A program made the position numbers and the translations under genes. Positions 850 to 13,136 of a stretch of 64,000 nt of DNA are shown here, one piece after another (within the stretch, counting starts at the first letter, position 1; every line of letters starts with the position of its first letter). The notes beneath the pieces were generated by a model that was not told the origin of the DNA, did no database searches, and saw nothing but the letters and a program-made list of their open reading frames with translations. Source of the stretch: Thermoanaerobaculia bacterium. GTDB lineage: Bacteria > Acidobacteriota > Thermoanaerobaculia > Multivoradales > UBA5704. The stretch covers positions 20,363 through 84,362 of the forward strand of contig DASXXC010000419.1 of assembly GCA_036503335.1 (NCBI GenBank). The letters are read 5' to 3'.

Positions 850-1737
850 ATGGTCATTATGGCAAACGTCCTCAGCAACGCCGACCGGACCGCCGTCGTC
901 GCCGCCCTTGTCGAGGGCAACTCGATCCGCGCCACCTCCCGCATGACGGGGGTGGCCCGGAACACGGTCACCAAGCTCCTCCTTGACCTCGCGAAGGTGT
1001 GCGCGGCCTACTCGGATGAGCGGCTGGTGAACCTGCCTTGCAAGCGGCTCCAGGTCGATGAGATTTGGGAGTTCTGCTACGCCAAGGCGAAGAACGTGCC
1101 GCCCGCGAAGAAGGGCGTTTTCGGCTACGGCGACGTGTGGACGTTCGTTGCCATCGACGCCGATACCAAGCTGGTGCCGTCGTGGCTGGTGGGCTCGCGG
1201 GACATCGGCAGCGCGACCGAGCTGATGCAGGATCTCGTCTCCCGCCTCTCCGGCCGCGTGCAGCTCACCACAGACGGCCTGAAGGCGTACATCTCGGCGG
1301 TCGAGGACGCTTTCGGCGGGGACGTGGACTACGGGATGCTCAACAAGATCTATGCCGCTCCGCCGAACGGCCCAGAGACGCGCTACAGCCCCGCCGAGTG
1401 CACCGGCTGCGAGAAGCGGGTGATCGTCGGCAACCCCGACAAGAAGCACGTCAGCACGTCGTTTGTGGAGCGCCAGAACCTCACGATGAGAATGTCCATG
1501 CGGCGCTTTACGCGGCTGACGAACGGCCACAGCAAGAAGGTGGAGAACCACGGCGCCGCCATCGCGGTCCATTTCGCCTACTACAACTTCTGCCGGACTC
1601 ACATGAGCCTCGGAAAGGGACCGGACGGTAAGGGGGTGACCCCGGCGATGGCGGCCGGAGTCGAGTCGCGGAAGCTCGAAATCTCTGACCTCATAGCCTT
1701 ACTTCCCGATTCAGAAAATAAGGCGGGGTCAAAATGA
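850..1737 (+). CDS. IS1-family transposase (single fused ORF)
   Basis: An N-terminal HTH-like region is followed by a DDE region. The C-terminal block ERQNLTMRMSMRRFTRLTNGHSKKVENH and the ...RTHMSLGKGPDGKGVTPAMAAGV tail match the InsB-type C-terminus (ERTHLNIRTHLKRLARKTICFSRSVEMH pattern). The gene is isolated and flanked by non-coding repeats. Confidence 0.8.
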   Translation: MVIMANVLSNADRTAVVAALVEGNSIRATSRMTGVARNTVTKLLLDLAKVCAAYSDERLVNLPCKRLQVDEIWEFCYAKAKNVPPAKKGVFGYGDVWTFVAIDADTKLVPSWLVGSRDIGSATELMQDLVSRLSGRVQLTTDGLKAYISAVEDAFGGDVDYGMLNKIYAAPPNGPETRYSPAECTGCEKRVIVGNPDKKHVSTSFVERQNLTMRMSMRRFTRLTNGHSKKVENHGAAIAVHFAYYNFCRTHMSLGKGPDGKGVTPAMAAGVESRKLEISDLIALLPDSENKAGSK

Positions 1738-1965: not shown

Positions 1966-2146
1966 GAATCCACGCGTAGAGGAGGGACCGAAACCATTTA
2001 AGCTCAGCTACTTGGCAATTTCGATCGCCTCCGCCGGCCCTTGAGGGAGGCTGGACGGCGTGTCCGGTGCGCCTCCAACGGTAACCCAGATCGGAGGATC
2101 GGGGAAGAGGGCGTGGAGCGCCGGTCGACCAGCAGCTGGAGAAGCC

Positions 2147-2602
2147 ATGGAACCAAGACTCGTCGATCAATCAGCCTTTGACGTAGTGGGCCTGGAAGTT
2201 GTGACGACCCCAAAGTCGCCCGCGATTTCAGCCCTGTGGGACTCCTTCGTACCCAGGATGCACGAGATTTCCATGTCCGCTCCGGAAAAGGCGGCCTACG
2301 GAGTTATGACGCGGGACGAACGGGATCCGGGCAGCATGCGCTACCTGGCCGGCCTCCCGGTCGCGGGTGCTTCGTCCATGCCCCGGGGCATGAAGTCGGT
2401 CACCATACCCGCCGGGCGGTATGCGGTGTTCAATTCCTCCTTGGCCGAGCTCTCGCGCGACTTCGACTCCATCTACGGAAGCTGGTTGCCAGCCTCGGGA
2501 ATGCGAGTGGAGGGCCGGCCGGTCTACGAGCGCTATGGCGAGGAATTCGACCCCGGCAATCCTCATTCGCTTGTAACAATTCATATACCGGTTGCGCCAT
2601 GA
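2147..2602 (+). CDS. GyrI-like (SbmC/AraC effector-binding type) small-molecule-binding domain protein
   Basis: Begins MEPRLVDQSAFDVVGLEV... and has the overall length and composition of GyrI-like domain proteins. I chose the internal Met start over the 2060 start. Confidence 0.6.
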   Translation: MEPRLVDQSAFDVVGLEVVTTPKSPAISALWDSFVPRMHEISMSAPEKAAYGVMTRDERDPGSMRYLAGLPVAGASSMPRGMKSVTIPAGRYAVFNSSLAELSRDFDSIYGSWLPASGMRVEGRPVYERYGEEFDPGNPHSLVTIHIPVAP

Positions 2603-2789
2603 AGGTGCCAGGACCACCCCGAACTCGGGTCCGTCCTCTTAAACACATTTCTGTATCCCGTAGGGAGGCAGGAAGGGGAGGAGGGGCGAAGGAGTCCGAT
2701 CTCGAGGGGCCGGGCCGTCGCTTATCCAATCGTCATTGAGCGCTACAATAGTATACGATTGCTATAAGTCTAGAGGAGAACAAGCAAAG

Positions 2790-3656
2790 ATGCCGAGATC
2801 AACTAAGCCTCCCGAACCAAGGCCTGCTCAACTCACACCAGATCTGATGGCAAGGGGGCTGCCCAAGCTAGAACGAAGGATCGAGGAGCTTAAAAGCTTT
2901 GACGTGCGCACGCTTAAGAAGCGCGGGGATCCTGCTGCCGAGGCGCTTAAGAATAAGGTCAACGGAACGCTGCGAGAGCTTTTAGGGTACGATACTATCG
3001 AGTACGAAGAGTATAGCACGTACTCTCTGGATACACTGCCGATGAGGATAGGGGGCTATCCGCATCCGATTGAGGACATCTGGGAGGGATATCAAGAGGG
3101 GATTGATCGCGCGGTTACAAAGCTTCAGACGCTCAAGGCAGTGTTTGAGGAGCGTTTAGCTGATTTAGATGTTAGGGACGTCTCTTCGGAGCAGGAATCT
3201 CTCGCACCATCGAGCCCTAGAATATTTCTTGTTCATGGTCATGATGCGGCTACAAAGCTTGGCGTTGCTCGCTTTTTGGAACGGCTTGGGCTGGAGCCCA
3301 TAATTCTTCATGAGCAGGCCAACGAAGGCAAGACCATTATCGAGAAATTCGAGGTTCACTCCGCTGTAGATTTTGCGGTTGTATTGCTGACTCCGGACGA
3401 TATGGGTTATCCGCTCGACAAGCCGGAATTGACCCAGCCTCGTGCTCGGCAGAACGTAATAATGGAGCTTGGATTTTTTCTCGGAAGTCTAGGGCGTGGC
3501 AAAGTAGCCGTTCTCTATAAGAAAGGGGTGGAGATCCCTTCCGACTATCAGGGGGTAGCTTTTATTTCATTGGATGAAAGCGATGGATGGCACCTCCAAC
3601 TTGCTAGGGAGTTGAAGAAGGCAGGCCTTAATGTTGACCTCAACCGGGTTGTATAG
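2790..3656 (+). CDS. TIR-like / SLOG-type predicted nucleotide-binding domain protein (COG4271/MTH538-like C-terminal domain) with a helical N-terminal region
   Basis: C-terminal block IFLVHGHDAATKLGVARFLERLGLEPIILHEQANEGKTIIEKFEVHSAVDFAVVLLTPDD...PRARQNVIMELGFFLGSLGRGKVAVLYKKGVEIPSDYQGVAFISLD is the characteristic COG4271 TIR-like signature. AGGAGA Shine-Dalgarno sequence sits before the ATG at 2790. The gene is markedly lower in GC than its neighbours. Confidence 0.7.
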   Translation: MPRSTKPPEPRPAQLTPDLMARGLPKLERRIEELKSFDVRTLKKRGDPAAEALKNKVNGTLRELLGYDTIEYEEYSTYSLDTLPMRIGGYPHPIEDIWEGYQEGIDRAVTKLQTLKAVFEERLADLDVRDVSSEQESLAPSSPRIFLVHGHDAATKLGVARFLERLGLEPIILHEQANEGKTIIEKFEVHSAVDFAVVLLTPDDMGYPLDKPELTQPRARQNVIMELGFFLGSLGRGKVAVLYKKGVEIPSDYQGVAFISLDESDGWHLQLARELKKAGLNVDLNRVV

Positions 3657-3922
3657 ACTTGGAACGGTGGGTGAGGTCATTGGCCAGACCAACTCGCTAC
3701 TCGTGAGCTTCCGCGAGCGCTTGAGAGGTGTCGTCGACCTCGGCTGGGTCACTCCGATCGTTTCAGCACCCGGCGTGGTGAGAATCCCTTATGAAGCAGG
3801 GGACGGCACGATGGGGGAAGCTGTCGTCGTCGACGCGCGAGCGCTTCGCGATTGGCTGTCGCATCCGCGCTTTCACATGCCGAAGTGAGCCGCGTGCCTC
3901 ATAGGATCGGAACCGATCCCCC

Positions 3923-4816
3923 CTACCACATCAGCTCCGCCGTGACCGGCAGGTGGTCCGAGGTTCCGAGTGGCCAGGCGCGCGAGGCCCGGACCTGCCA
4001 GCCGTGGTCCACGAAGATGTAATCGATCTGCTCCTTCCAGCGCGGAAAGGTCGGACCGATCCCCCTTGAGGCGAGCTGGGCGGCGTTCTCGTGGAGGAAC
4101 GCCCTCATCTCCGGCGAGCCCGGACCCGTGTTGAGGTCCCCGGCGAGGATGTACGGGTAGCGGCTGGTGCGGACCTCCCGGGCCAGGCAGTCCAACTGCT
4201 CCCTCCGGATCTTCGAGTTGAGGCGGCCCCAGGTCGTGAGGTGCGTGGCGTAGAAGCTGATCGTGGCTCCGTCGATGCGGACCGTCGCCTCGAGGAGCGC
4301 CCGCGGCTCGCCGACGCAGGGCAACGGATGTGCCTCCGCCCGCACGATCTGGCCGCGGGTGAGGATCGCGTTGCCGAACTCGCCGCCCCACCGGACATAG
4401 CTCGGGACGAAGTAGCCGTGGAGGCCGGTGCCCGATTCCAGCTCGGCGACCTGATCGCGAAAGCGTGACTGCCAGGTCTTGCGGTGTACCTCCTGCAAGG
4501 CCACGAGGTCCGGGTGGAGGCGCTGGATCGCCTCGGCGATGTGGCGCACGTGATCGCCGTCGATCAGCTCGTCGTGGCCCGCGATGTTGTAGGTCATCAC
4601 CACGAGAGGCCGGCGCTGCGGCGGAAAGCCGGACCGCTCCGGGAAGCTGACGAGCGCGCCGTGCTCGTCGCGCGTCAAGAGGCGAAGGCTGGGGTCGACC
4701 GGCCGGGGCCGGCACTCGCCGGAACGTACGGTGAAGATGAACAAGACCCGGTAGAGAGCGGGCACGAGGAGGAGGGCGAGCACGCCGAGGATCAGTCTTC
4801 GCTTCTTGAGGGCCAT
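3923..4816 (-). CDS. Endonuclease/exonuclease/phosphatase (EEP) family protein with an N-terminal membrane anchor or signal
   Basis: Hydrophobic N-terminus (LILGVLALLLVPALYRVLFIF) followed by EEP-fold motifs (VMTYNIAG, LQEV, GDLN, SDHLPV). Confidence 0.85.
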   Translation of the reverse strand: MALKKRRLILGVLALLLVPALYRVLFIFTVRSGECRPRPVDPSLRLLTRDEHGALVSFPERSGFPPQRRPLVVMTYNIAGHDELIDGDHVRHIAEAIQRLHPDLVALQEVHRKTWQSRFRDQVAELESGTGLHGYFVPSYVRWGGEFGNAILTRGQIVRAEAHPLPCVGEPRALLEATVRIDGATISFYATHLTTWGRLNSKIRREQLDCLAREVRTSRYPYILAGDLNTGPGSPEMRAFLHENAAQLASRGIGPTFPRWKEQIDYIFVDHGWQVRASRAWPLGTSDHLPVTAELMW

Positions 4817-4959
4817 CGCTATCCGATCTCCAGGTCTCTGCTCTCCAGGTGGCGGCCCTGGACAGCAGGGCCCGGATTGTAGCGAAGCGTGGAGCGAAAC
4901 AGCGGCGGGCGAGGCCTAGAGGAGAGCGCTGGGTGGCTTGGACGCCTGGACGCCCTGCT

Positions 4960-5754
4960 TCAACTGGCGGAGGAAATCGACCAGCGCCTTGCCAGGGTCG
5001 GGCTCTCCGGAAGAGAGGACGTCGATTCCCAGCCGGCCGAGCACCTGCTGATCGATCGGATTGGGGAAGCCTGGAAGAGATAGGAACGGGGCCGCGCGCC
5101 GTCGCGGCCGACCCGCTCCCAGAGCTTCGCGAGCTTATAGAACAGATAACGGATGTTGAAGTCCGAGAAGCTGTAGCCGATGAAGAGCACGGAACGGCCC
5201 AGGACGTCGGCGCGGAGCTTCAGGTCGAGAGCCGTCTGAAACTCCAGCCGGTCGAAATAGCTCGATTCGGTCAGCACGAGCGAGGAATCGTCGTCGAAGT
5301 CACCATGGAACTTGACGATCTGCGTGACGCCCTCGCGGATCTTCACCATGTCGTCCACCTTGGCGATCCGGGTGTAGCTCCGCTCGATCCGTTCGTGAGC
5401 CGATTCGAGCCAGCGGTCATAATTGGTTGTATAGAGGATCGGGAAATCGAGATCGAGGATGAGGTTGTGGACCTCGGAATCCTCAATGCGGATATCCTTG
5501 GAGTGCCACTCCCGGTCCATGAGACTGCGGAGCGGGCCGATGCTGCCTTTCTTCAATACGTAGTACTCGGCCAGGCTCTGGAAGTTGCCGTAGGAACGGA
5601 AGATGTCGGGATCGAAATCCAGATCCCTGGCCATGAGCGCGATCAACTGGGACCACGAGGGGAGCTTCAATCCCATGGAGACCCCGGCTCCGGCGAAGAG
5701 AATCACCCGCCGCTCCGCGAGGGCGGCGATCAACTCGTCTGATGAATGCGCCAT
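4960..5754 (-). CDS. SIR2-like (SIR2_2/DSR/ThsA-type) domain protein. The C-terminal ~55 aa are probably out of frame; an alternative reading ends at 4916.
   Basis: ILFAGAGVSMGLKLPSWSQL, YTTNYD, KFHGD, SSLVLTESSYF and RSVLFIGYSFSDFNIRYL are the SIR2_2 signature blocks. The annotated tail (SPIRSISRCSAGWESTSSLPESPTLARRWSISSAS) looks unnatural. The -1 frame instead gives PNPIDQQVLGRLGIDVLSSGEPDPGKALVDFLRQLKQGVQASKPPSALL up to a TAG at 4916-4918. Confidence 0.75.
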   Translation of the reverse strand: MAHSSDELIAALAERRVILFAGAGVSMGLKLPSWSQLIALMARDLDFDPDIFRSYGNFQSLAEYYVLKKGSIGPLRSLMDREWHSKDIRIEDSEVHNLILDLDFPILYTTNYDRWLESAHERIERSYTRIAKVDDMVKIREGVTQIVKFHGDFDDDSSLVLTESSYFDRLEFQTALDLKLRADVLGRSVLFIGYSFSDFNIRYLFYKLAKLWERVGRDGARPRSYLFQASPIRSISRCSAGWESTSSLPESPTLARRWSISSAS

Positions 5755-6317
5755 ACCGGCTCCAGCTTCGCGCAGAGCGCGTCGAGCGCCTTGCGGCGCA
5801 TGGAGATCTCGTCCTTGATCTCATCTCCCATCTCTGCGTAGGTCTGGGAATAGCCGTCTGGGACGAAGAGTCTGTCCCAACCGAAACCGGCTATGCCCTT
5901 GGGCTCGGGAGCGATCCGGCCGCGGACACACCCCTTCGCCTGAACGATCTTGCGGCCGTCGCAGTATCCAACCATCGTACAGGCGAAGAGGCGCTGCTCC
6001 TCCTGCTTCCCGAAAAGCCGCAGGAACCTCTCGGGCCTCGACCGTTCAGGGCCCAGACCCATCCAGAAGCTCTGGGTCAGGCCGCCAGGCAGGCCGTTCA
6101 GGCACCGCACGTACAAGGCGGTGTGCTCGACCAGCAAAGGTAACCGGACCTTCTGAAAAGCGTCCAGCGTCTTCTGGCGGACGAGCCTGGGGAGGCTGTG
6201 AGTCTGGATCTCCTCGATCCCCAAATTCTTCCAGACGACGTCGATACCGCGGGGACCGAGGATGCTCTGAGCTTCCAGAACCTTTCGCTCAGACTGGGAT
6301 ACTAGAAAGAGCCGCAC
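5730..6317 (-). CDS. Ham1/RdgB/ITPase-family protein, divergent
   Basis: The C-terminal block GFGWDRLFVPDGYSQTYAEMGDEIKDEISMRRKAL matches the Ham1 GFGYDPIF...TFAEM...ISHR..AL region, and the fold is recognisable throughout. Canonical positions are substituted: SQS for TGN, EHTAL for EDSGL, and SMR for SHR. It overlaps the SIR2 gene start by 25 nt. Confidence 0.75.
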   Translation of the reverse strand: MRLFLVSQSERKVLEAQSILGPRGIDVVWKNLGIEEIQTHSLPRLVRQKTLDAFQKVRLPLLVEHTALYVRCLNGLPGGLTQSFWMGLGPERSRPERFLRLFGKQEEQRLFACTMVGYCDGRKIVQAKGCVRGRIAPEPKGIAGFGWDRLFVPDGYSQTYAEMGDEIKDEISMRRKALDALCAKLEPVWRIHQTS

Positions 6318-6345
6318 GCGAGGGTCTCCGTTTCAATGCTCTTGC

Positions 6346-8970
6346 TCACGGCAGAGCCGCGGAATTTTCGAAGCGCCGGCGCGGTGGAGCGCCGACGATG
6401 CTCTCCGGCTCGTCCAGTGGACGAGGAGGCAGAGTGAACTGGCTGATGCATCCTTGGGCGCGGACCCGCTCCAACCACCGCTCCGCCTCTTCCTGAGAGA
6501 GGCCGCTCACCACCAGCGTATCGATCAGCTTTTGATACTCCTCACGCAAGGTCGTGGCGAAGGTGACCGGATCGTCGGACCCGATACAGACCGAGATCGG
6601 CTGCAGGGGCGTGCCGTCCCGGGGAGGAGAGAGGCGCCAGAGCGGATGCCGGCCGAGGTCCCGCAGGTCTCCGATCAGGAAATTCGAGCTCGGGTTCGCC
6701 TCGATGACGATGCCGTGAGCGCCGACGTGGCGGATCAGCTCCGACTGGATCGTGGCGAGCGCCTCCCCCTCCGGCTCGGTCCGGATCCATTCGAGCTCAT
6801 GTCCGTTCTGGAACACCACGGGATCGGTCAGGAACTGCACGAGCAGGTTACGGCGCTTGCGGTCCTCGATCTCTCCCCGGGCCACTCCACCCCGGAAGGG
6901 CCGGCCGCTCGGGAATCCGACTTGGCAGAGGACCTCGGGCTTGTGCAGATCCTCGACCATCTTCTCCAGGCGGTCGGCGGGATGCGGTTTGCCGAAAATC
7001 TCTTGGGAAAGGCGGGCGATCTCCCGCATCAGGTGGCTGACCCTGCGGCCATCCGGAGGGCTCACGCGGGCCAGGGAATACCAGCCCCACTCCCAGACCA
7101 GATCGAACAGGCGCTCCTCCTTGGGCATCACCACCGAGCCGGTCCGCTTCGCCCAATCCAACGGATCGAGGCCCAGGGCCATCGCGTGCCCGAGCCGGTC
7201 CCCCTCCTGGAGCGGCAGGAACTCCATCGCTTCCGTCACCCGGCGGAGCCCGGTGAGCAGATGAGCGAAATCCTCGCCCGCGTGTACCGTGCTCCGCAGC
7301 GCGGGCGCGGTCTCCTCCGACATCTCCTGAAGGAAGCTCGAAGCTTCCCGGCCGGCGGCGTGAACGTATTGGAACACGGGCACCAGGACCCAGGTGGGAA
7401 CCCCCGCCTCGTCCGTGCAGATGTCGAGCCCGCGCAGCAGAAACAGAACGCTGGGGTGGCGCTGGATGGCCGTCGCCAGCGCCAGCGCCTCCCGCTTCTT
7501 TTTCTGGTAGTAAATCGAATAACGCCAGCCCGTCCGCTTGTGACGCGGATCGGCATAGGAATCGGCCCAGCGGTTTCCGAGCCTCCCCTCCGCCGCGTGG
7601 CCGCCCCGGTCCCGGGTGAAATGGAGAATGAGACCGACCTCGACAGGATGATCCCTGACCCGCTCACACCGCTCCTGGAGGGAGCGGGCGGCCAGCTCCG
7701 TGTCCTTGAAGAGCGTGACGTGCTCGGAGACCGACTCGGACGGCGCGGTCCGGAGCTCCAGATAGCGCAGGCCATGGCCGATCCCCTCCAACTGGGCCGT
7801 GCTCTCGATCTGCACCTTCGTCCCCCAGGCTCTCGCCGTACGGATCCGGCCATAAAAGCGGAAAAACCATTGCAATCCCGGAGTCAAGGGGCGCTGCACG
7901 AGGTGCTGGTAGAAGATGCCGCGCACCCGGATCACCTGCCAGAACAGAGATTCGAAAAGCGCGTCTTTCTTGCCCTTGCCGGCCCTGTCCTCCAGATGCC
8001 ACAGGCCCGCCGCCACGAACCGGATCTCCGGTGTGGGAACGACTGGCGACTCGGATGCCGGAAAATAGCGGGCGATCGGATCGAGCTGCTGGATCTCGGA
8101 GGCACACGTCGGCTCTTTCCATACCGTCGCTCCGCTCAGGCGCGCATAGAGTCCCCGGACCTCGGATAGCTTGATCCCATGCTCAGGCTCCAGCCGGCCA
8201 TGGACGAGCTCCCGGGCCACCGCCTGCAGGAGAGCCGCTCCGGTCGCTCTGAGCTCCGAAGCCAGGACCCCTTGCACCCATTGGGCAAAGCCCATCTCCC
8301 GCGCGTCGCGATCGGTCAGGAACGCGCCCATGAGCACCCGCACGAGCGCGGCCCGGGCCAGCCATTCGCCGAGCTCCTGCCCCTCATTGAATGCGGCGCC
8401 CGGGCTGCGGAAGTCCGAGGCATCGAGGCGCGAGTGCGCCATCACGAGGAGCACTCCCACCCAGAGATCCGTGAATTCGGAGGCGGCTCCGAAGTGCAGA
8501 TGAAGCTGCCCGAAACCGCGGTCCTTCAGCATGCGGTCGAGCCGGGGGGACACCGTGGCGACTCTGCGGCAGGGAGGGGGGCCCTTCTCGATCGCGGCCA
8601 GGAGCAGATCGGGAGGGAGCGAGAGAGCGATCCATTGCCAGAAGATCCTGGAGTCCGCTCCGGAGCTGTCGGGAGTCTGGAGCTCCTCCGGCAGCCTGGG
8701 CCACACCGTCGCTCCGTCCACCCGCAGGCACCGGGCGGCGATGGACCGCAACAGCGCCTCCAGAGGGACGTCGGTCTTTGACCGTTCCCCCTTCTCCGAG
8801 AACCAGATGTAATCGCGCAGGTTGGTGATCTCGTCGATCGAAAGCGAACGCGAGCGGAGATCGTTCTCCACGCACCGCCAGAAGTCGCCGGTCGGTCCCT
8901 TCAGGTCCGGGCACAGGTTCGTGACGTTGGTCCGGAACGCAAGCTCGGTGGCAAAGGGATACGACGCCAT
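6346..8970 (-). CDS. rdrB: Large adenosine-deaminase-fold protein, RdrB-like (RADAR deaminase candidate)
   Basis: LHLHFGAA (HxH metal ligands), STVHAGEDF (HAGE motif) and SVCIGSDDPVTFATTL (SLNTDDP-like), with IEANPSSN immediately upstream, are the adenosine/AMP deaminase signature blocks. They are spread over an 874-aa protein with large insertions. It lies 66 bp downstream of the big ATPase on the same strand. Confidence 0.7.
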   Translation of the reverse strand: MASYPFATELAFRTNVTNLCPDLKGPTGDFWRCVENDLRSRSLSIDEITNLRDYIWFSEKGERSKTDVPLEALLRSIAARCLRVDGATVWPRLPEELQTPDSSGADSRIFWQWIALSLPPDLLLAAIEKGPPPCRRVATVSPRLDRMLKDRGFGQLHLHFGAASEFTDLWVGVLLVMAHSRLDASDFRSPGAAFNEGQELGEWLARAALVRVLMGAFLTDRDAREMGFAQWVQGVLASELRATGAALLQAVARELVHGRLEPEHGIKLSEVRGLYARLSGATVWKEPTCASEIQQLDPIARYFPASESPVVPTPEIRFVAAGLWHLEDRAGKGKKDALFESLFWQVIRVRGIFYQHLVQRPLTPGLQWFFRFYGRIRTARAWGTKVQIESTAQLEGIGHGLRYLELRTAPSESVSEHVTLFKDTELAARSLQERCERVRDHPVEVGLILHFTRDRGGHAAEGRLGNRWADSYADPRHKRTGWRYSIYYQKKKREALALATAIQRHPSVLFLLRGLDICTDEAGVPTWVLVPVFQYVHAAGREASSFLQEMSEETAPALRSTVHAGEDFAHLLTGLRRVTEAMEFLPLQEGDRLGHAMALGLDPLDWAKRTGSVVMPKEERLFDLVWEWGWYSLARVSPPDGRRVSHLMREIARLSQEIFGKPHPADRLEKMVEDLHKPEVLCQVGFPSGRPFRGGVARGEIEDRKRRNLLVQFLTDPVVFQNGHELEWIRTEPEGEALATIQSELIRHVGAHGIVIEANPSSNFLIGDLRDLGRHPLWRLSPPRDGTPLQPISVCIGSDDPVTFATTLREEYQKLIDTLVVSGLSQEEAERWLERVRAQGCISQFTLPPRPLDEPESIVGAPPRRRFENSAALP

Positions 8971-9036
8971 CTCCGCGCAGATCTCCAGCGTGGGGATGGC
9001 GAGGGTGCGGGCGGCGGCGTTGTTGGTGGTCAGGGC

Positions 9037-11955
9037 TTATCCCCCAGAATTCTCATCGAGGTCGGGAAAAGCAGCACGCAACTGGGCTGTGAAGCCTTCC
9101 AGTGCGAAAGCGATCCGCTCTTGTGGGTCTCTGAGCCCTTTCTTGAGGAGCCGTTCTTGGGCTTGTTTCAACTCCTCGGAATTAGGCACCAGCTCACCGC
9201 CAAGAAGCTCATTGACCGGATGGATGTTGCTCAATTCCGCCGGGCTCATGCTGCTATCGCCCTTCTTGATCAGCATGCCAATCTTTTCATTGTCTATGAA
9301 GGGTGCAAGGCGATCTGCGCGAAGGTTGCGTATGCGCGAAGCTCTAGAACGTGATTCCTTAGGGTCACCTAGAAAGTTGCTCAAAGTGCTCTTGGCGAGG
9401 AGCGTGGTTATCGCTTGTTTCACGATGCTATGGTCTTGTGTTGCAAGGAATCCGGATTCCGGTGCAAGAAGAACGGGCAATCGAATAAGCCAGCTTTTGA
9501 TCCTTTCTGCTCGTACTGTCACGGCATTGGAGTCCTTAACGAGTTGTTCTATGGCTTCTGCCAATTTAACCCAAAGCTCGGAGCCAATCTCAACCTCGTC
9601 GAGAGAATCGGGAATGGTCTTGAGACCCGTGTCAGTTAAAGATTGCTCCTCGGAACCCGACGTCTCGGATTTGCTCGACTCCTGTGGTGGCGGTGGAGGT
9701 GGCGGATCCGATTTCTCAAAGATTTTGCATATCCCCGCGATCCAGGTATAGAGCAGCAAAGCTCTTTGATGCGGCTCGTCCCCTAGATACCACAGGTCAC
9801 TGCGAAGAGCGGAGTCCCAGATGTGACTGAGCTGATCGAACTCCCAGAAGCTAGTCCAGGCAGGGGTAATCCAAGGGACCTTTACTGCGTCACGAAGCCC
9901 CAGATCCCAGGCAGCTACGGCCCAACCCAGGTCCAGTGAGTTGGGCGAGAGAGAATGAGAGCCGACGATGCCTCCCCACCTCTCCAAGGCCAGGAGGTCA
10001 TGCAGCAGTACGATCAGGGCCTTGGTCCGTTCGGCGATCTCAATCGGGCGCTCTCTTTCCAGGTCCCAAAAGGCCCAGGAGCGCCGATAGCTAGCGTGCA
10101 GCGTGCAATCGTGATCGCGAAACGGGATGATCCTGCCGGGAACGGATATGCTTCGAGCCTCGACAAACCTCATAGCTTGAAGCCATTCCTCGTCTGGGTT
10201 GACTCCGAGCGCCTCTACGAAGCGCTCCCTGTAACGAATTGACAACAGCTCGTCTTCCTCCATGGCCCGGTGAGTCTCCATTCCGACCAAATTTATAAGC
10301 ATGGTGAGGTGTGATTTCCACTTATCCTCGGGGCCATGCGGAGTCTCGCGATGAATAAGGTCACGTATGGAAAACCATAGGTCGGCAATATAGCGTGGAG
10401 TTGCCTTGAGCAGCGTAGAGCCCGTGTAGGGGAAGATGCGTTCCTGGTCCGTTTTTTCTCTGCTCTTCTTTTCGAGTAAATTCTGTTCCTCGAGTGTGCT
10501 TGCTCTTGCGCCAGGTTTGGAGGAGGTCAATTCTTGAAGGCGTACATTGAAGCAAAGGAATTCGCAAAAATTGGGAACAATCTTGCCTGCGATGGATTGT
10601 AGCTTGTGCCTTTTGACCTTTTCGAGTTGTTTCTGTTCTTCGGATTCCTCGGGTTGAGGGGGTTGTTGTTGCCCTGTTTCTTTTCTGTCTGGCTCAAAGG
10701 CCGTTTCAATATCTATCGGAAGCTGCTCAAGGAGGTCTCGGAGTCTTTCTTTGTCGTTATTCCAGCCGTTTTTCGTATCCTCATTTCTGAGGTGGCGAGG
10801 ATGAAAATTGAGAGCTTCCCATACTTTTAATGCTCCCAGCTCAATCCGCTGCCCCGGAGGCACGAGCTTGCGGATCGCATGGCCGGATAAGGATCGCGCT
10901 ATACCTCGGATCTCCGAGGAAGACAGAGACAGGTAATCGGGTGTATAAGCGGCTTCGAGCACCTTGGCAAAGTCGCCGCTCTTCCTCAAGTTGAACATCA
11001 GCTCCGCCATCCGGACGTCACCCAAAACTATGATGAAAAGGCGGGGTGAGGTGACCATGCGGATCAGGTGCAGAAGCTCCAGGGAACGCAGAGGGTTCAG
11101 GTCATAGTCGTCTACCGGGAGAACGAAGAACGGGTTCTTGACGTAACTGCTCTTGCCGAGCTCCTGCGCGAGGTCATCGAGAGCCTTGTTGAGGGCTGCG
11201 TTGATCCCTACACGCGCATCCTCGACGCGAGTGACTTCAGCGGCGTAAGCGTCAGGGTCCAAGGCGCTGGCGCGAGCATCCACGTTACCGTCCCAGGCGA
11301 TGGCAACGTCTGCGGCCAATTTTCGTAGCCCATGTAGAGCCTTTTCCCCCGACGCGAGGCTCAGAAGGCCACTCTGGTAAGTTTTGTCATCCTTTTTCTG
11401 ATTAAAACGAGTAGCGGCTCGGTCAATCCGTGCTAGAATAGCCGCGAGGAGATTGACGGGGCGCGGTAGTGGTTCCATGTCCAAGGGATCAAGCCATACG
11501 AGGCGATCCTGCAGCTCTTCCAGAGATTTCCCTATCGCATCAGGGGTTTTCTGCTGATTATTTGTACTGGCATCCGGACCTTGCGATTTTGTGCCGGCTT
11601 TATCATTCGTAGTTGTCTCTTCTTTTTTGTCTCTTCTCTCGTCGCTGGCCTGGCAAAACCTGTCAGGATCGAGGAAGGCCTCGAACAAAGAAACGAGGAC
11701 CGTGGACTTGCCTGTCCCTCGTTTTCCCGAGACGAAGACCAGCCGGCTCGACCGGAAACGATCCGGGGTGGCGGGGAGGTTGGGAGGGTTCTCCGCGGAC
11801 TTCTGCCTGGCGGCCTCATCGACATCACGTCGAGCGTCTTTCAGCGCGTCGAGAATCTTGCGAAAGGCGCTCTGCTGGGAGGCATTCAGGAGATCCCAGC
11901 GCAGCGGCCGGGCTTCGGGGCGTAGGACGTAAGGCGTCTTCTCGTCGGAAGCCAT
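9037..11955 (-). CDS. rdrA: Large P-loop NTPase, RdrA-like (RADAR ATPase candidate)
   Basis: Walker A motif VFVSGKRGTGKSTVL at about aa 75-88 and Walker-B-like FFVLPVDDYD. It is about 970 aa, the first gene of the string, and the gene body is lower in GC than its neighbours. Confidence 0.65.
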   Translation of the reverse strand: MASDEKTPYVLRPEARPLRWDLLNASQQSAFRKILDALKDARRDVDEAARQKSAENPPNLPATPDRFRSSRLVFVSGKRGTGKSTVLVSLFEAFLDPDRFCQASDERRDKKEETTTNDKAGTKSQGPDASTNNQQKTPDAIGKSLEELQDRLVWLDPLDMEPLPRPVNLLAAILARIDRAATRFNQKKDDKTYQSGLLSLASGEKALHGLRKLAADVAIAWDGNVDARASALDPDAYAAEVTRVEDARVGINAALNKALDDLAQELGKSSYVKNPFFVLPVDDYDLNPLRSLELLHLIRMVTSPRLFIIVLGDVRMAELMFNLRKSGDFAKVLEAAYTPDYLSLSSSEIRGIARSLSGHAIRKLVPPGQRIELGALKVWEALNFHPRHLRNEDTKNGWNNDKERLRDLLEQLPIDIETAFEPDRKETGQQQPPQPEESEEQKQLEKVKRHKLQSIAGKIVPNFCEFLCFNVRLQELTSSKPGARASTLEEQNLLEKKSREKTDQERIFPYTGSTLLKATPRYIADLWFSIRDLIHRETPHGPEDKWKSHLTMLINLVGMETHRAMEEDELLSIRYRERFVEALGVNPDEEWLQAMRFVEARSISVPGRIIPFRDHDCTLHASYRRSWAFWDLERERPIEIAERTKALIVLLHDLLALERWGGIVGSHSLSPNSLDLGWAVAAWDLGLRDAVKVPWITPAWTSFWEFDQLSHIWDSALRSDLWYLGDEPHQRALLLYTWIAGICKIFEKSDPPPPPPPQESSKSETSGSEEQSLTDTGLKTIPDSLDEVEIGSELWVKLAEAIEQLVKDSNAVTVRAERIKSWLIRLPVLLAPESGFLATQDHSIVKQAITTLLAKSTLSNFLGDPKESRSRASRIRNLRADRLAPFIDNEKIGMLIKKGDSSMSPAELSNIHPVNELLGGELVPNSEELKQAQERLLKKGLRDPQERIAFALEGFTAQLRAAFPDLDENSGG

Positions 11956-12248
11956 GAATCCTCACTCTTTGGAAAAAGAAAGGGTCATTCTCTTAAAAGT
12001 ATAGAGAGGAGGATCTCGCTCCTGTCAAGGATTCTTGCTGATAGAAATATTCATCTCCGCGAAGGGAAGCGGTGAGGCCTCCGCCAAGAGATAGACGGAC
12101 GCTGGTTGGAAGTTCCGCGGGGATTCGGGAGAAGAGGTAGACCCCCTCCGGGATCAGAGGAGGACCCGGTGTATAATCGTCCGGCACTGACTCCTGGCGC
12201 TTACCCGCATCGGCTCGTCCCGCCATCGTCTTCGCAACGGAGGCCGCT

Positions 12249-13136
12249 ATGAGAGCACATCGTTTCGCCTGGCTGCCGGTCCTGGTTTTCGCCCTCCCTG
12301 GCTTCGGCGCAACCCCGGCCCCCCCGGTCTCGGGCCAGTTCGTGCTGGACGGAAAGGCGGTGGCGGTGAGCGAGGTCGCGGCTTTCCGGATGCGCGATCA
12401 GTTCAATCCCCGGACCCTCGAGACCTATGTGATGCTGACCGCCAAGCCCGTGGACCGGGCGGCGATCAGCGCCTCCCTCGATCCCTATAGCGTGGCGATC
12501 AACGATCCCGCGACGCTCCACGCCGACTACATCGCTTTCAGCGTGCGCGCCAACGGCGAGGTCGGCATGAACGCTCACGTGGGCGGGGTCCAGTACATCG
12601 ACACCTCAGGCAGGATCATGGGCCAGCCCGGCTCTCTGGTCGCGAAATGCAGCGAGAACACGCCGACGCGCGTCGCTTGCCACGTGAAGACGGAGAAGCC
12701 GGTCAAGACGATGGACGGGCCGACCTTTTCGCTGGACCTGAGCTTCGAGGCCGACGTGCAGTCCCGCAAGCCGGGCAAGCCCCTGGCCAAGGAGGACCAG
12801 GCCCCCGGCCAGGCGCTGCTGGCGCTGCGGGCCGCGGTCGCGGGTGACGACCTGGCCAAAATCCTGGCGCTTCTCACGCCTGAGCAGGCCAAGAGCTACC
12901 AGGAGGATTGGCAATCGCCGGCGGAGAATCTCAAATCCGCCAAGGACATCCTGAACGTCCAGCTCCCGAAGAATCCCAAGATCACCGGCGGCGAGATGCT
13001 GGCCGACGACCACGTGGTGCTGGAGGTCGAAGGCGAGCCGTACGAGAACGGTCACATGCTCTACCTCGTGGAGATGCGGCGGATCGACGGCCGCTGGCTC
13101 TACGAGCGGGCGAGCGTGGCCGGGATGTTGCGCTGA
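12249..13136 (+). CDS. Secreted hypothetical protein (signal peptide)
   Basis: N-terminal MRAHRFAWLPVLVFALPGFGA signal-like segment, coding-like composition, and a terminator hairpin directly downstream. Confidence 0.55.
   Translation: MRAHRFAWLPVLVFALPGFGATPAPPVSGQFVLDGKAVAVSEVAAFRMRDQFNPRTLETYVMLTAKPVDRAAISASLDPYSVAINDPATLHADYIAFSVRANGEVGMNAHVGGVQYIDTSGRIMGQPGSLVAKCSENTPTRVACHVKTEKPVKTMDGPTFSLDLSFEADVQSRKPGKPLAKEDQAPGQALLALRAAVAGDDLAKILALLTPEQAKSYQEDWQSPAENLKSAKDILNVQLPKNPKITGGEMLADDHVVLEVEGEPYENGHMLYLVEMRRIDGRWLYERASVAGMLR

What the first reader, a model, noticed from the sequence alone, without database searches (positions are those of the whole stretch)
6346..11955. RADAR-like core: ~970-aa P-loop ATPase immediately followed by an ~870-aa adenosine-deaminase-fold protein
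The same-strand pair of a ~900-aa ATPase (Walker A GKRGTGKST near the N-terminus) and a ~900-aa protein carrying HxH / HAGE / SxxxGSDDP adenosine-deaminase motifs is the defining architecture of the RADAR anti-phage system (RdrA + RdrB, which deaminates ATP/dATP to ITP/dITP). The pair sits in a mosaic island beside an IS element and other defence-type domains, which supports a defence role.
Basis: partly seen in the sequence, partly recalled or inferred. Interest (0 to 1): 0.8.

Follow-up and report, generated by a model that had tools for sequence, protein, structure and literature searches.

The report
RADAR-like pair wired to Kongming effector
The two big genes are a distant relative of the RADAR anti-phage system, and they sit in one four-gene cassette with the inosine-nucleotide sensor and NAD-destroying enzyme of the Kongming system. 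This suggests that RADAR's product can act as an alarm signal, though the last gene carries a frameshift in this genome.

Summary
Two minus-strand ORFs, 9037-11955 (972 aa, Walker A GKRGTGKST) and 6346-8970 (874 aa, HxH/HAGE/GSDDP), lie 66 nt apart.

ORF 5730-6317 is a KomB-type HAM1 with the catalytic acid replaced by His65 (PDB KomB, E 1e-44). ORF 4960-5754 is a KomC-type SIR2 NADase (PDB KomC, E 1e-88).

The four genes form one cassette. They are shared with a relative at the same chromosomal site, recur in Methylococcaceae, and recur in a different gene order in one metagenome contig.

Likely mechanism: RdrA-gated RdrB makes (d)ITP, KomB senses it, and KomC depletes NAD+.

Caveats: KomBC accompanies only about 3% of such pairs. 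The KomB residue that selects dITP (Q141) is Gly here. A 1-nt deletion truncates KomC's KomB-contact tail. Zeng et al. already noted this association, untested.

The parts
9037..11955 (-). RdrA-like AAA+ ATPase, 972 aa. Walker A G82-K83-S84, Walker B D282-D283, putative sensor 1 D313. Low-complexity inserts at aa 96-140 and about 417-505.
   Evidence: ORF and translation. The family profile's top PDB hits are E. coli RdrA, E 6e-9, over profile positions 67-339. The only Foldseek hits with E<=1e-3 are 16 RdrA chains. [quoted passage not shown] NCBIfam RdrA scores only 37 bits against a cut-off of 600.
6346..8970 (-). RdrB-like adenosine-deaminase-fold protein, 874 aa. Zn and catalytic residues H157, H159, H563, E566, H595, D799, D800.
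   Evidence: AF2 model has pLDDT 89. The top 8 Foldseek hits are all E. coli RdrB (E 4.5e-27 to 1e-24, TM 0.62-0.73, full length). The next hit is at 5e-4.
5730..6317 (-). KomB-type HAM1 protein, 195 aa, GTG start 28 nt after the deaminase stop. A probable nucleotide sensor rather than an enzyme: His65 replaces the catalytic acid. K12, E15, E36, Q38, K49, T66, F145, W147 and R174 are kept. Gly146 stands where E. coli KomB has Q141.
   Evidence: Pfam Ham1p_like 7e-35. PDB KomB 8zsg_V, E 1.4e-44. In 123 relatives, position 65 is H (109) or Q (14) and never D. Residue roles are taken from 10.1101/2024.12.20.629578 and PMC13454610.
4960..5754 (-). KomC-type SIR2 NADase ORF, 264 aa as it reads, overlapping the KomB stop by 25 nt. 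N111, H150 (catalytic) and D80/R81 (filament contact) are kept. The last roughly 34 aa are out of frame.
   Evidence: Pfam SIR2_2 2e-24. PDB KomC 8zsf_D, E 1.3e-88, aa 6-231 against 2-227. The alignment with three KomC relatives breaks at about aa 230.
4916..5065 (-). Displaced KomC C-terminus. After a 1-nt deletion at 5065/5066 (relative to L085), the KomC-like tail PNPIDQQVLGRLGIDVLSSGEPDPGKALVDFLRQLKQ... continues in another frame to a stop at 4916-4918.
   Evidence: The sequence is identical over the compared region in an independent Logan assembly (L001), and four such assemblies from separate runs call the same 264-aa ORF. The lost segment corresponds to KomC S245/E246/D248, the KomB contacts essential in E. 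coli (PMC13454610).
11998..12028 (-). Possible promoter for the cassette: TTGACA (12028-12023), 19 nt, TATACT (12003-11998), then GAGG 6 nt before the ATG at 11955.
   Evidence: Read directly from the sequence. It was not called by the consensus scan because the spacer exceeds 18 nt. It lies inside the DNA shared with L085. This is weak evidence.

Best explanation
Window 4916-12028 (minus strand) is a four-gene anti-phage cassette. It joins a divergent RADAR-like sensor/generator to the Kongming effector.

Proposed mechanism, step by step:
1. The RdrA-like AAA+ ATPase detects infection and licenses the RdrB-like deaminase. This is inferred from E. coli RADAR.
2. RdrB converts dATP/ATP to dITP/ITP. 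This is inferred from the conserved active site and fold.
3. The inosine nucleotide binds the catalytically dead HAM1 protein (KomB-type). This switches on the SIR2 partner (KomC-type), which hydrolyses NAD+ and aborts the infection. This is inferred from E. coli Kongming.

The large RdrB stands in for the small KomA deaminase and for the phage kinase step that Kongming needs.

In this genome the effector arm may be weakened or dead. A 1-nt deletion replaces the KomC tail that contacts KomB. The RdrA-RdrB core could still defend on its own through (d)ITP accumulation, as two-gene RADAR does.

What is shown here: the homologies, the conserved residues, cassette conservation and the frameshift. 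What is inferred: every biochemical step.
For: Identity of the parts:
- RdrB.
- RdrA.
- KomB: E 1.4e-44 to the solved KomB, with His65.
- KomC: E 1.3e-88 to the solved KomC, with H150 and D80/R81.

Linkage of the four genes:
- They are co-directional, with gaps of 66 nt, 28 nt and a 25-nt overlap.
- The DNA shared with a relative whose deaminase is about 80% identical, at the same chromosomal site, is exactly window 4954-12102 plus the flanking Oxidored_FMN gene. The EEP/TIR/IS flank is not shared.
- RdrB-KomB-KomC recurs in Methylomonas and Methylomarinum MAGs (L006, L010/L100).
- Contig L150 has KomB-KomC-RdrA-RdrB in a different order, with a 1-nt gap between KomC and RdrA.
- No KomA-type small deaminase or 5'-nucleotidase is present anywhere in the 64-kb window. 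RdrB is therefore the only candidate signal generator.

Literature:
- RADAR produces ITP and dITP in infected cells (PMC9994260).
- dITP activates KomBC NADase through KomB (10.1101/2024.12.20.629578).
- The same paper notes RADAR-like systems genetically associated with KomBC.
Against: - KomBC accompanies this RdrAB clade in only 2 of 68 genome loci and 2 of 64 metagenome loci with room downstream. The pair normally works without it.
- E. coli KomBC responds to dITP and not to ITP. The window KomB has Gly at the Q141 position and also differs at R8 and H11, residues that contact dITP. Its ligand is therefore unknown.
- The KomC frameshift removes the equivalent of E246/D248, which are essential in E. 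coli.
- RdrA and RdrB fall far below curated equivalog cut-offs. No activity has been shown for this clade.
Confidence: 0.6

Rival explanations
1. This is a plain two-gene RADAR-like system that happens to lie beside an orphan, decaying KomBC remnant in a defence island. The two modules do not talk to each other.
For: About 97% of related RdrAB loci have no KomBC. KomC is frameshifted here. The region is a mosaic island with IS and TIR genes. KomBC modules are known to move horizontally and to pair with varied partners.
Against: The four genes are conserved as one block in L085, while the rest of the island is not. The association recurs in at least three further lineages and in two gene orders, with 1-48 nt spacing. 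No other deaminase is available in the window to feed KomBC. The displaced KomC tail is still clean coding sequence, so the frameshift looks recent.
Confidence: 0.22
2. The HAM1 protein is an active ITPase that acts as an antidote or safety valve. It would hydrolyse leaky (d)ITP from RdrB to protect the host, with SIR2 acting independently.
For: Pfam and NCBIfam place it in the RdgB/HAM1 family. It keeps the ITPase-like Gly in the F-G-W-D motif, as in the FGYDP of active enzymes.
Against: The catalytic acid is His65, as in catalytically inactive KomB. None of 123 relatives has Asp there. The canonical SHR motif is SMR. It is about 50% identical to the solved KomB, E 1e-44, against 1e-22 or weaker for enzymes. 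Its gene overlaps the KomC-type gene, as in Kongming. A genuinely active ITPase paralogue (EDSG, FGYDP, SHR) looks different.
Confidence: 0.08
3. The pair is not defence-related. It would be a housekeeping AMP/adenosine deaminase next to an unrelated KAP/STAND NTPase.
For: The single-sequence PDB search of the ATPase finds nothing significant. The curated RADAR HMM cut-offs are not reached.
Confidence: 0.03

Closest known systems
RADAR (RdrA + RdrB) of E. coli, Citrobacter rodentium and Streptococcus suis (PDB 8fnt, 8fnu, 8fnv, 8fnw, 8hr7; PMC9994260)
   Same: Gene order (ATPase then deaminase), protein sizes, AAA+ motifs (Walker A/B, sensor 1) and ADA Zn/catalytic residues. The predicted full-length RdrB fold matches at TM 0.62-0.73, and RdrA is the best structural match.
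   Different: Sequence identity is about 10-20%. The proteins score far below NCBIfam equivalog cut-offs (190/800 and 37/600 bits) and only weakly or partially against the PADLOC models. The clade occurs in Acidobacteriota, Myxococcota, Planctomycetota and similar groups. This instance carries two extra effector genes.
Kongming (KomA + KomB + KomC), E. coli NCTC13216 (10.1101/2024.12.20.629578; PMC13454610; PDB 8zsf-8zsi)
   Same: KomB-type HAM1 with His65 and conserved binding residues. KomC-type SIR2 with the catalytic His and the filament Asp-Arg pair. Overlapping komB-komC genes. The window KomB is about 46% identical to the KomB of a canonical Burkholderia Kongming locus (L086).
   Different: There is no small KomA and no 5'-nucleotidase. 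An 874-aa RdrB-like deaminase plus a 972-aa ATPase stand upstream instead. RdrB acts on triphosphates, so a phage dNMP kinase should not be needed. KomB has Gly where Q141 selects dITP. The KomC C-terminal KomB-contact segment is frameshifted.
'RADAR-like systems associated with KomBC', noted by Zeng et al. (fig. S19A of 10.1101/2024.12.20.629578)
   Same: This window appears to be an instance of that reported genetic association, and it carries the same proposed logic: RdrB supplies (d)ITP to KomBC.
   Different: That report is a one-sentence bioinformatic remark without experiments. Their figure was not available here, so I could not check whether their RADAR-like partners belong to this same divergent clade.
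Cad1 (CARF-adenosine deaminase of type III CRISPR; PMC11645235)
   Same: A defence deaminase that converts ATP to ITP. It is a weak structural neighbour of the deaminase domain.
   Different: It is activated by cyclic oligoadenylate through a fused CARF domain. It has no AAA+ partner and no HAM1/SIR2 effector.

Membership tests
RADAR | RdrB: adenosine-deaminase fold with an intact Zn/catalytic set (HxH, HxxE, H, DD) | tested here: met
   H157/H159, H563/E566, H595 and D799/D800 are present and conserved in 29 homologues. Pfam A_deaminase scores above its gathering score.
RADAR | RdrB: the large (about 800-900 aa) RdrB-specific architecture around the deaminase core | tested here: met
   The AF2 model (pLDDT 89) aligns full-length to E. 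coli RdrB, E 4.5e-27, TM 0.62-0.73. Ordinary deaminases score 5e-4 or weaker. Sequence E is 1e-30 over aa 340-845.
RADAR | RdrB passes the curated equivalog model (NCBIfam NF041744, cut-off 800 bits) | tested here: not met
   190 bits. PADLOC RdrB gives 1.3e-45, but only over partial stretches.
RADAR | RdrA: AAA+ ATPase with Walker A, Walker B and sensor 1, and RdrA as the closest structure | tested here: met
RADAR | RdrA passes the curated equivalog model (NCBIfam NF041743, cut-off 600 bits) | tested here: not met
   37 bits. PADLOC RdrA gives 7.6e-5 for the window protein. Twelve of 30 family members hit it, best 1.9e-8.
RADAR | RdrA-specific C-terminal helical domain | tested here: inconclusive
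RADAR | rdrA immediately upstream of rdrB, co-directional and conserved | tested here: met
   The gap here is 66 nt. An ATPase homologue lies directly upstream in 49 of 53 metagenome loci with room, and in nearly all genome loci with room.
RADAR | [quoted passage not shown] | not testable with these tools
   Needs biochemistry, cryo-EM and infection assays.
Kongming | KomB: HAM1 fold with the catalytic acid replaced by His, and nucleotide-binding residues kept | tested here: met
   H65 sits in VEHTAL, with K12, E15, K49, T66, F145, W147 and R174 kept. PDB KomB E 1.4e-44.
Kongming | KomB Q141 (FQWD), the residue reported to confer dITP-over-ITP selectivity | tested here: not met
   The window has G146 (FGWD). 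Q is present in 111 of 123 relatives and G in 8, including the RADAR-linked L150. The role of Q141 is from PMC13454610.
Kongming | KomC: SIR2 NADase with the catalytic His and the filament-forming Asp-Arg pair | tested here: met
   H150 corresponds to H146, and D80/R81 to D76/R77. PDB KomC E 1.3e-88 over aa 6-231.
Kongming | KomC C-terminal segment that contacts KomB (S245/E246/D248) | tested here: not met
   A 1-nt deletion at 5065/5066 puts the 'SSGEPDP' segment in another frame. Independent Logan assemblies call the same 264-aa ORF, and L001 is sequence-identical over the compared region.
Kongming | KomA: a small (about 350 aa) adenosine deaminase in the operon | tested here: not met
   tblastn of a canonical KomA and of the 5'-nucleotidase against the whole window gives no hit. 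The only deaminase is the 874-aa RdrB-like protein.
Kongming | dITP-activated NAD+ depletion | not testable with these tools
   Needs an NADase assay with the purified complex.

The most novel reading that the evidence does not exclude
In this cassette the inosine nucleotide made by a RADAR-type machine acts as a second messenger rather than a poison. Because KomB carries Gly instead of the 2'-OH-excluding Gln141, the messenger could be ITP, the ribonucleotide and the most abundant RdrB product, rather than dITP. The same Gly is found in the independently arranged L150 cassette. That would make ITP a new bacterial immune signal. It would also show experimentally that RADAR can work as a signal generator feeding a separate effector.
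Probability: 0.2. Interest if true: 0.75.

Novelty: new variant of a known kind. Interest (0 to 1): 0.52.

Why it matters
How RADAR actually stops phage is still debated. Candidates are ATP loss, (d)ITP toxicity, or something downstream. Kongming showed that dITP can be an immune messenger.

A natural cassette that places a RADAR-type generator directly upstream of the Kongming sensor-effector gives a concrete, cloneable test of whether RADAR output is read as a signal.

The comparison of cassettes also offers a natural experiment on ligand specificity: FQWD versus FGWD KomB, and two gene orders.

The work further shows that a large RADAR-like clade, in at least 175 species genomes across Acidobacteriota, Myxococcota, Planctomycetota, Actinomycetota and others, lies below the thresholds of current annotation models. 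It is therefore probably under-counted in defence-system censuses.

The value is tempered. The association has already been mentioned in print, and this particular copy has a damaged KomC.

Tried and rejected
- **Single-sequence phmmer of the ATPase against PDB** found only P-loop noise. The link to RdrA needed a family profile and structure comparison.
- **EEP gene as a fifth cassette member.** I considered the downstream endonuclease/exonuclease/phosphatase gene (3923-4816) and rejected it. It has a 143-nt gap, host-like GC3 (0.92), an N-terminal hydrophobic signal-like segment, and is absent from the otherwise syntenic L085.
- **Programmed -1 ribosomal frameshift as an explanation for the KomC break.** The site (GCT TCC CCA ATC) is not a canonical X XXY YYZ slippery heptamer, so this is unlikely. 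It was not tested further.
- **Assembly error as an explanation for the frameshift.** This is unlikely. Four independent Logan assemblies from separate runs call the same 264-aa ORF, and L001 is sequence-identical over the compared region. The runs probably sample one population, however. The one contig from another sample (P0068) had no retrievable DNA.
- **Gly146 (FGWD) as a marker of RADAR-linked KomB.** Only partly supported. The window clade and L150 have it. L006 and L010 have FQWD, and other FGWD proteins sit in ITPase-KomB-SIR2 loci without any deaminase.
- **Promoter/terminator consensus scan** gave no more sites than shuffled sequence.
- **Viral-contig scan** for the deaminase clade found nothing.
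- **Other conserved third genes downstream of RdrB.** Apart from a TauD-like ORF in seven Acidobacteria loci and a small membrane protein in two loci, the downstream genes are unrelated.
Full report

The upstream protein has a Walker A motif GKRGTGKST (aa 77-85) and a Walker B VDDYD. The downstream protein has H157-L-H159, H563-A-G-E566, H595 and G-S-D799-D800-P. These residues are invariant or at least 90% conserved in an alignment of 29 homologues.

The segment has lower G+C (0.54-0.65) than the rest of the window (about 0.70). Third-position G+C is 0.60-0.83 here against about 0.93 for surrounding host genes. The genes therefore lie in an acquired island.

**The deaminase is RdrB-like.**
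- It hits NCBIfam RdrB (8e-56) and PADLOC RdrB (1.3e-45), but at 190 bits against a curated cut-off of 800.
- phmmer against PDB sequences finds E. coli RdrB at 1e-30 over aa 340-845. Ordinary adenosine deaminases appear only at 6e-3 or weaker.
- An AlphaFold model built on the family alignment (pLDDT 89, pTM 0.90) matches only E. coli RdrB chains at the top (E 4.5e-27 to 1e-24, TM 0.62-0.73, about 930 aligned columns). The next structure, a human ADA-like protein, is at 5e-4.

The whole RdrB architecture is therefore present, not just the catalytic core.

**The ATPase is RdrA-like, but remotely.**
- The single sequence finds nothing in PDB. It gets only 37 bits from NCBIfam RdrA (cut-off 600) and 7.6e-5 from PADLOC RdrA.
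- A profile of 30 family members puts E. coli RdrA first (E 6e-9). The match runs from Walker A through Walker B to the KLxPxQxR segment. It aligns K83, D282/D283 and D313 with RdrA K82, D221/D222 and sensor-1 D253, as defined in PMC9994260.
- The AF2 model (pLDDT 75) gives 16 Foldseek hits with E<=1e-3. All are RdrA chains from E. coli or S. suis. The next hit is at 0.12.
- Twelve of 30 family members hit PADLOC RdrA.
- Similarity of the C-terminal half is suggested but not firm, because global TM is low (0.23-0.32).

**The pair is a conserved operon in a large, divergent clade.** A scan of one genome per species found 175 genomes encoding a relative of this deaminase. The 80 loci kept span Myxococcota, Planctomycetota, Acidobacteriota, Actinomycetota, Desulfobacterota, Sericytochromatia and others. 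In nearly all loci with enough flank, a homologue of the window ATPase lies directly upstream on the same strand. In the metagenome set the count is 49 of 53. None was found on viral contigs.

- 28 nt after the deaminase stop begins a 195-aa HAM1-family ORF (5730..6317; Pfam 7e-35). Overlapping its end by 25 nt is a 264-aa SIR2_2 ORF (4960..5754; Pfam 2e-24).
- Against solved structures, the HAM1 protein's best match is KomB (8zsg, E 1.4e-44; true ITPases 1e-22 or weaker). The SIR2 protein's best match is KomC (8zsf, E 1.3e-88).
- KomB and KomC are the effector complex of the Kongming system. KomB is a catalytically dead HAM1 that binds dITP. KomC is the NADase it activates (10.1101/2024.12.20.629578; PMC13454610).
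- The window protein has the diagnostic His65 in place of the catalytic acid. Among 123 relatives this position is His (109) or Gln (14), never Asp.
- KomC-type residues H150 (=H146) and D80/R81 (=D76/R77, the filament contact) are present.
- A canonical Kongming locus from Burkholderia cenocepacia (5'-nucleotidase, 365-aa KomA, KomB, KomC) encodes a KomB 46% identical to the window protein.
- No KomA-like deaminase or 5'-nucleotidase is encoded anywhere in the window.

**The four genes behave as one unit.**
- A relative whose deaminase is about 80% identical (L085) carries ATPase-deaminase-KomB-KomC at the same chromosomal site, next to the same Oxidored_FMN gene.
- DNA similarity between the two genomes covers window 4954-12102 and the Oxidored_FMN gene. 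It does not cover the EEP, TIR, GyrI-like or IS genes on one side, or the 295-aa ORF on the other.
- RdrB-KomB-KomC also occurs in Methylomonas and Methylomarinum MAGs (L006, L010, L100).
- Metagenome contig L150 has the order KomB-KomC-RdrA-RdrB, with 1 nt between KomC and RdrA.

Recurrence in distant lineages and in two gene orders argues for functional coupling rather than chance adjacency.

The coupling is rare, though. Only 2 of 68 genome loci and 2 of 64 metagenome loci with room downstream have KomBC.

**Mechanism.** RADAR makes ITP and dITP from ATP and dATP during infection, and needs both RdrA and RdrB (PMC9994260). dITP activates KomBC. The simplest reading follows from this: RdrA senses infection and licenses RdrB, RdrB makes the inosine nucleotide, KomB binds it, and KomC destroys NAD+. 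RdrB would replace KomA and the phage dNMP kinase step. Every biochemical step is inferred by homology, and none is shown here. Zeng et al. proposed this same possibility in one sentence, citing RADAR-like systems associated with KomBC, and stated that it needs investigation. I found no paper in the library that tests it.

**Two features of this copy deserve attention.**

1. *KomB ligand site.* E. coli KomB Q141 (motif FQWD) is essential. It is proposed to exclude the 2'-OH, which would explain dITP-over-ITP selectivity. The window KomB has Gly146 (FGWD, as in true ITPases), and so does the KomB of L150. L006 and L010 keep Gln. R8 and H11 also differ. The ligand of this KomB may therefore differ, and ITP is one candidate. 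This is speculation. The Gly form also occurs in loci without any deaminase.

2. *KomC frameshift.* The alignment to KomC and its relatives breaks at about residue 230. Relative to L085 the window lacks one base at 5065/5066. The KomC-like tail (PNPIDQQVLGRLGIDVLSSGEPDPGKALVDFLRQLKQ...) continues in another frame to a stop at 4916-4918.
   - Four independent Logan assemblies from separate runs call the same 264-aa ORF, and L001 is sequence-identical over the compared region.
   - The lost segment corresponds to KomC S245/E246/D248. E246 and D248 are essential for E. coli Kongming.
   - The effector arm of this genome may thus be impaired. The displaced tail is still clean coding sequence, so the lesion looks recent.

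**Other details.**
- The ATPase diverges faster than its partners. Against L085 its identity runs 69, 53, 56 and 35% from N to C terminus, compared with 80% for RdrB and 82% for KomC. It also has a distinct composition (GC3 0.60). This is compatible with a sensor under diversifying pressure or with module exchange.
- A TTGACA-19 nt-TATACT element and a GAGG lie upstream of the ATPase start, inside the conserved block. The generic scan was uninformative.

**Verdict.** The RADAR interpretation is right in kind, but incomplete and slightly over-stated. This is a divergent RADAR-like clade below curated thresholds. The real unit is a four-gene RADAR-like/KomBC cassette of a type already flagged, but not tested, in the Kongming paper. 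I rate it a new variant of known kinds, of moderate interest, with a damaged KomC in this particular genome.

Noticed in passing
window 2736-3656 (+) and 3631-3888 (+): A TIR-domain protein matching the PADLOC candidate system PDC-S35 (8.7e-79) and Pfam CAP12-PCTIR_TIR. It is followed by an 85-aa ORF with a partial DUF6368 match. This looks like a separate candidate defence gene in the same island, and it is not shared with the syntenic relative L085.
   Followed up: partly
window 850-1737 (+) and 2060-2602 (+): A DDE transposase (weak IS1/IS240 matches) and a GyrI-like/Cass2 small-molecule-binding protein flank the island. Logan assemblies of the same organism differ beyond the transposase (L001, L002 and L004 have different ORFs there), which suggests local rearrangement.
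   Followed up: no
window 3923-4816 (-): An endonuclease/exonuclease/phosphatase-family protein with a hydrophobic N-terminal segment (MALKKRRLILGVLALLLVPALY), lying 143 nt downstream of KomC. It has host-like codon composition and is absent from L085, so it is probably not part of the cassette.
   Followed up: partly
window 12249-13136 (+): A 295-aa ORF with no family match lies between the cassette and the Oxidored_FMN gene. It is absent at the same position in L085.
   Followed up: no
window 9037-11955 (-): The ATPase gene has a much lower third-position G+C (0.60) than the deaminase (0.83) and KomB/KomC (0.79/0.82). It also contains long low-complexity, low-pLDDT inserts (aa 96-140 and about 417-505). 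Its identity to the L085 homologue falls from 69% at the N-terminus to 35% at the C-terminus.
   Followed up: partly
L039:12730-13557, L040:12832-13620, L042:12835-13626, L048:12817-13668, L052:13024-13737, L055:12774-13577, L061:12556-13329: In seven loci from Acidobacteriota-type MAGs (Pyrinomonadaceae, Vicinamibacterales, Terriglobia), a conserved 237-283-aa ORF starts at or just after the RdrB-like stop codon. It has a borderline TauD/TfdA dioxygenase match (6e-6, 26.8 bits against a cut-off of 27). It may be a different accessory gene for this RADAR-like clade.
   Followed up: partly
L007:9780-10289 and L009:12702-13292: A small (169-196 aa) hydrophobic, membrane-like protein without a Pfam match follows the RdrB-like gene in two loci. 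This is reminiscent of the small membrane accessory proteins that, from memory, are reported for some RADAR operons.
   Followed up: no
L088:691-2798; also L087:4229-5742 and L089:1-1677: A three-gene arrangement without any deaminase: an apparently active ITPase (199 aa; EDSG, FGYDP and SHR motifs intact), then a KomB-like dead HAM1 (VEHT, FGWD, SMR), then a 300-aa KomC-like SIR2. In L088 it is preceded by a MarR regulator. It may be a distinct Kongming-type variant in which an active ITPase sets the (d)ITP threshold.
   Followed up: partly
L150:679-8569: Metagenome contig JACCDS010733965.1 carries the same four gene families in the order KomB-KomC-RdrA-RdrB. The ATPase is longer (1148 aa), the KomC C-terminus is intact, and KomB has the FGWD motif. 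This is a better candidate than the window copy for experimental reconstitution.
   Followed up: partly
L017:14384-17035 (-): A second, much more distant deaminase homologue (E 2.4e-29 to the window RdrB-like protein) lies about 2 kb from the RdrAB-like pair on the opposite strand in a Myxococcales MAG. It may be a second RADAR-type system in the same island.
   Followed up: no
L085:4726-7620: The ATPase of the closest relative is split over three reading frames, and its KomC has its own 1-nt indel in a G/C run. The contig name suggests a long-read assembly, so these may be sequencing errors rather than pseudogenes. This could not be resolved.
   Followed up: no
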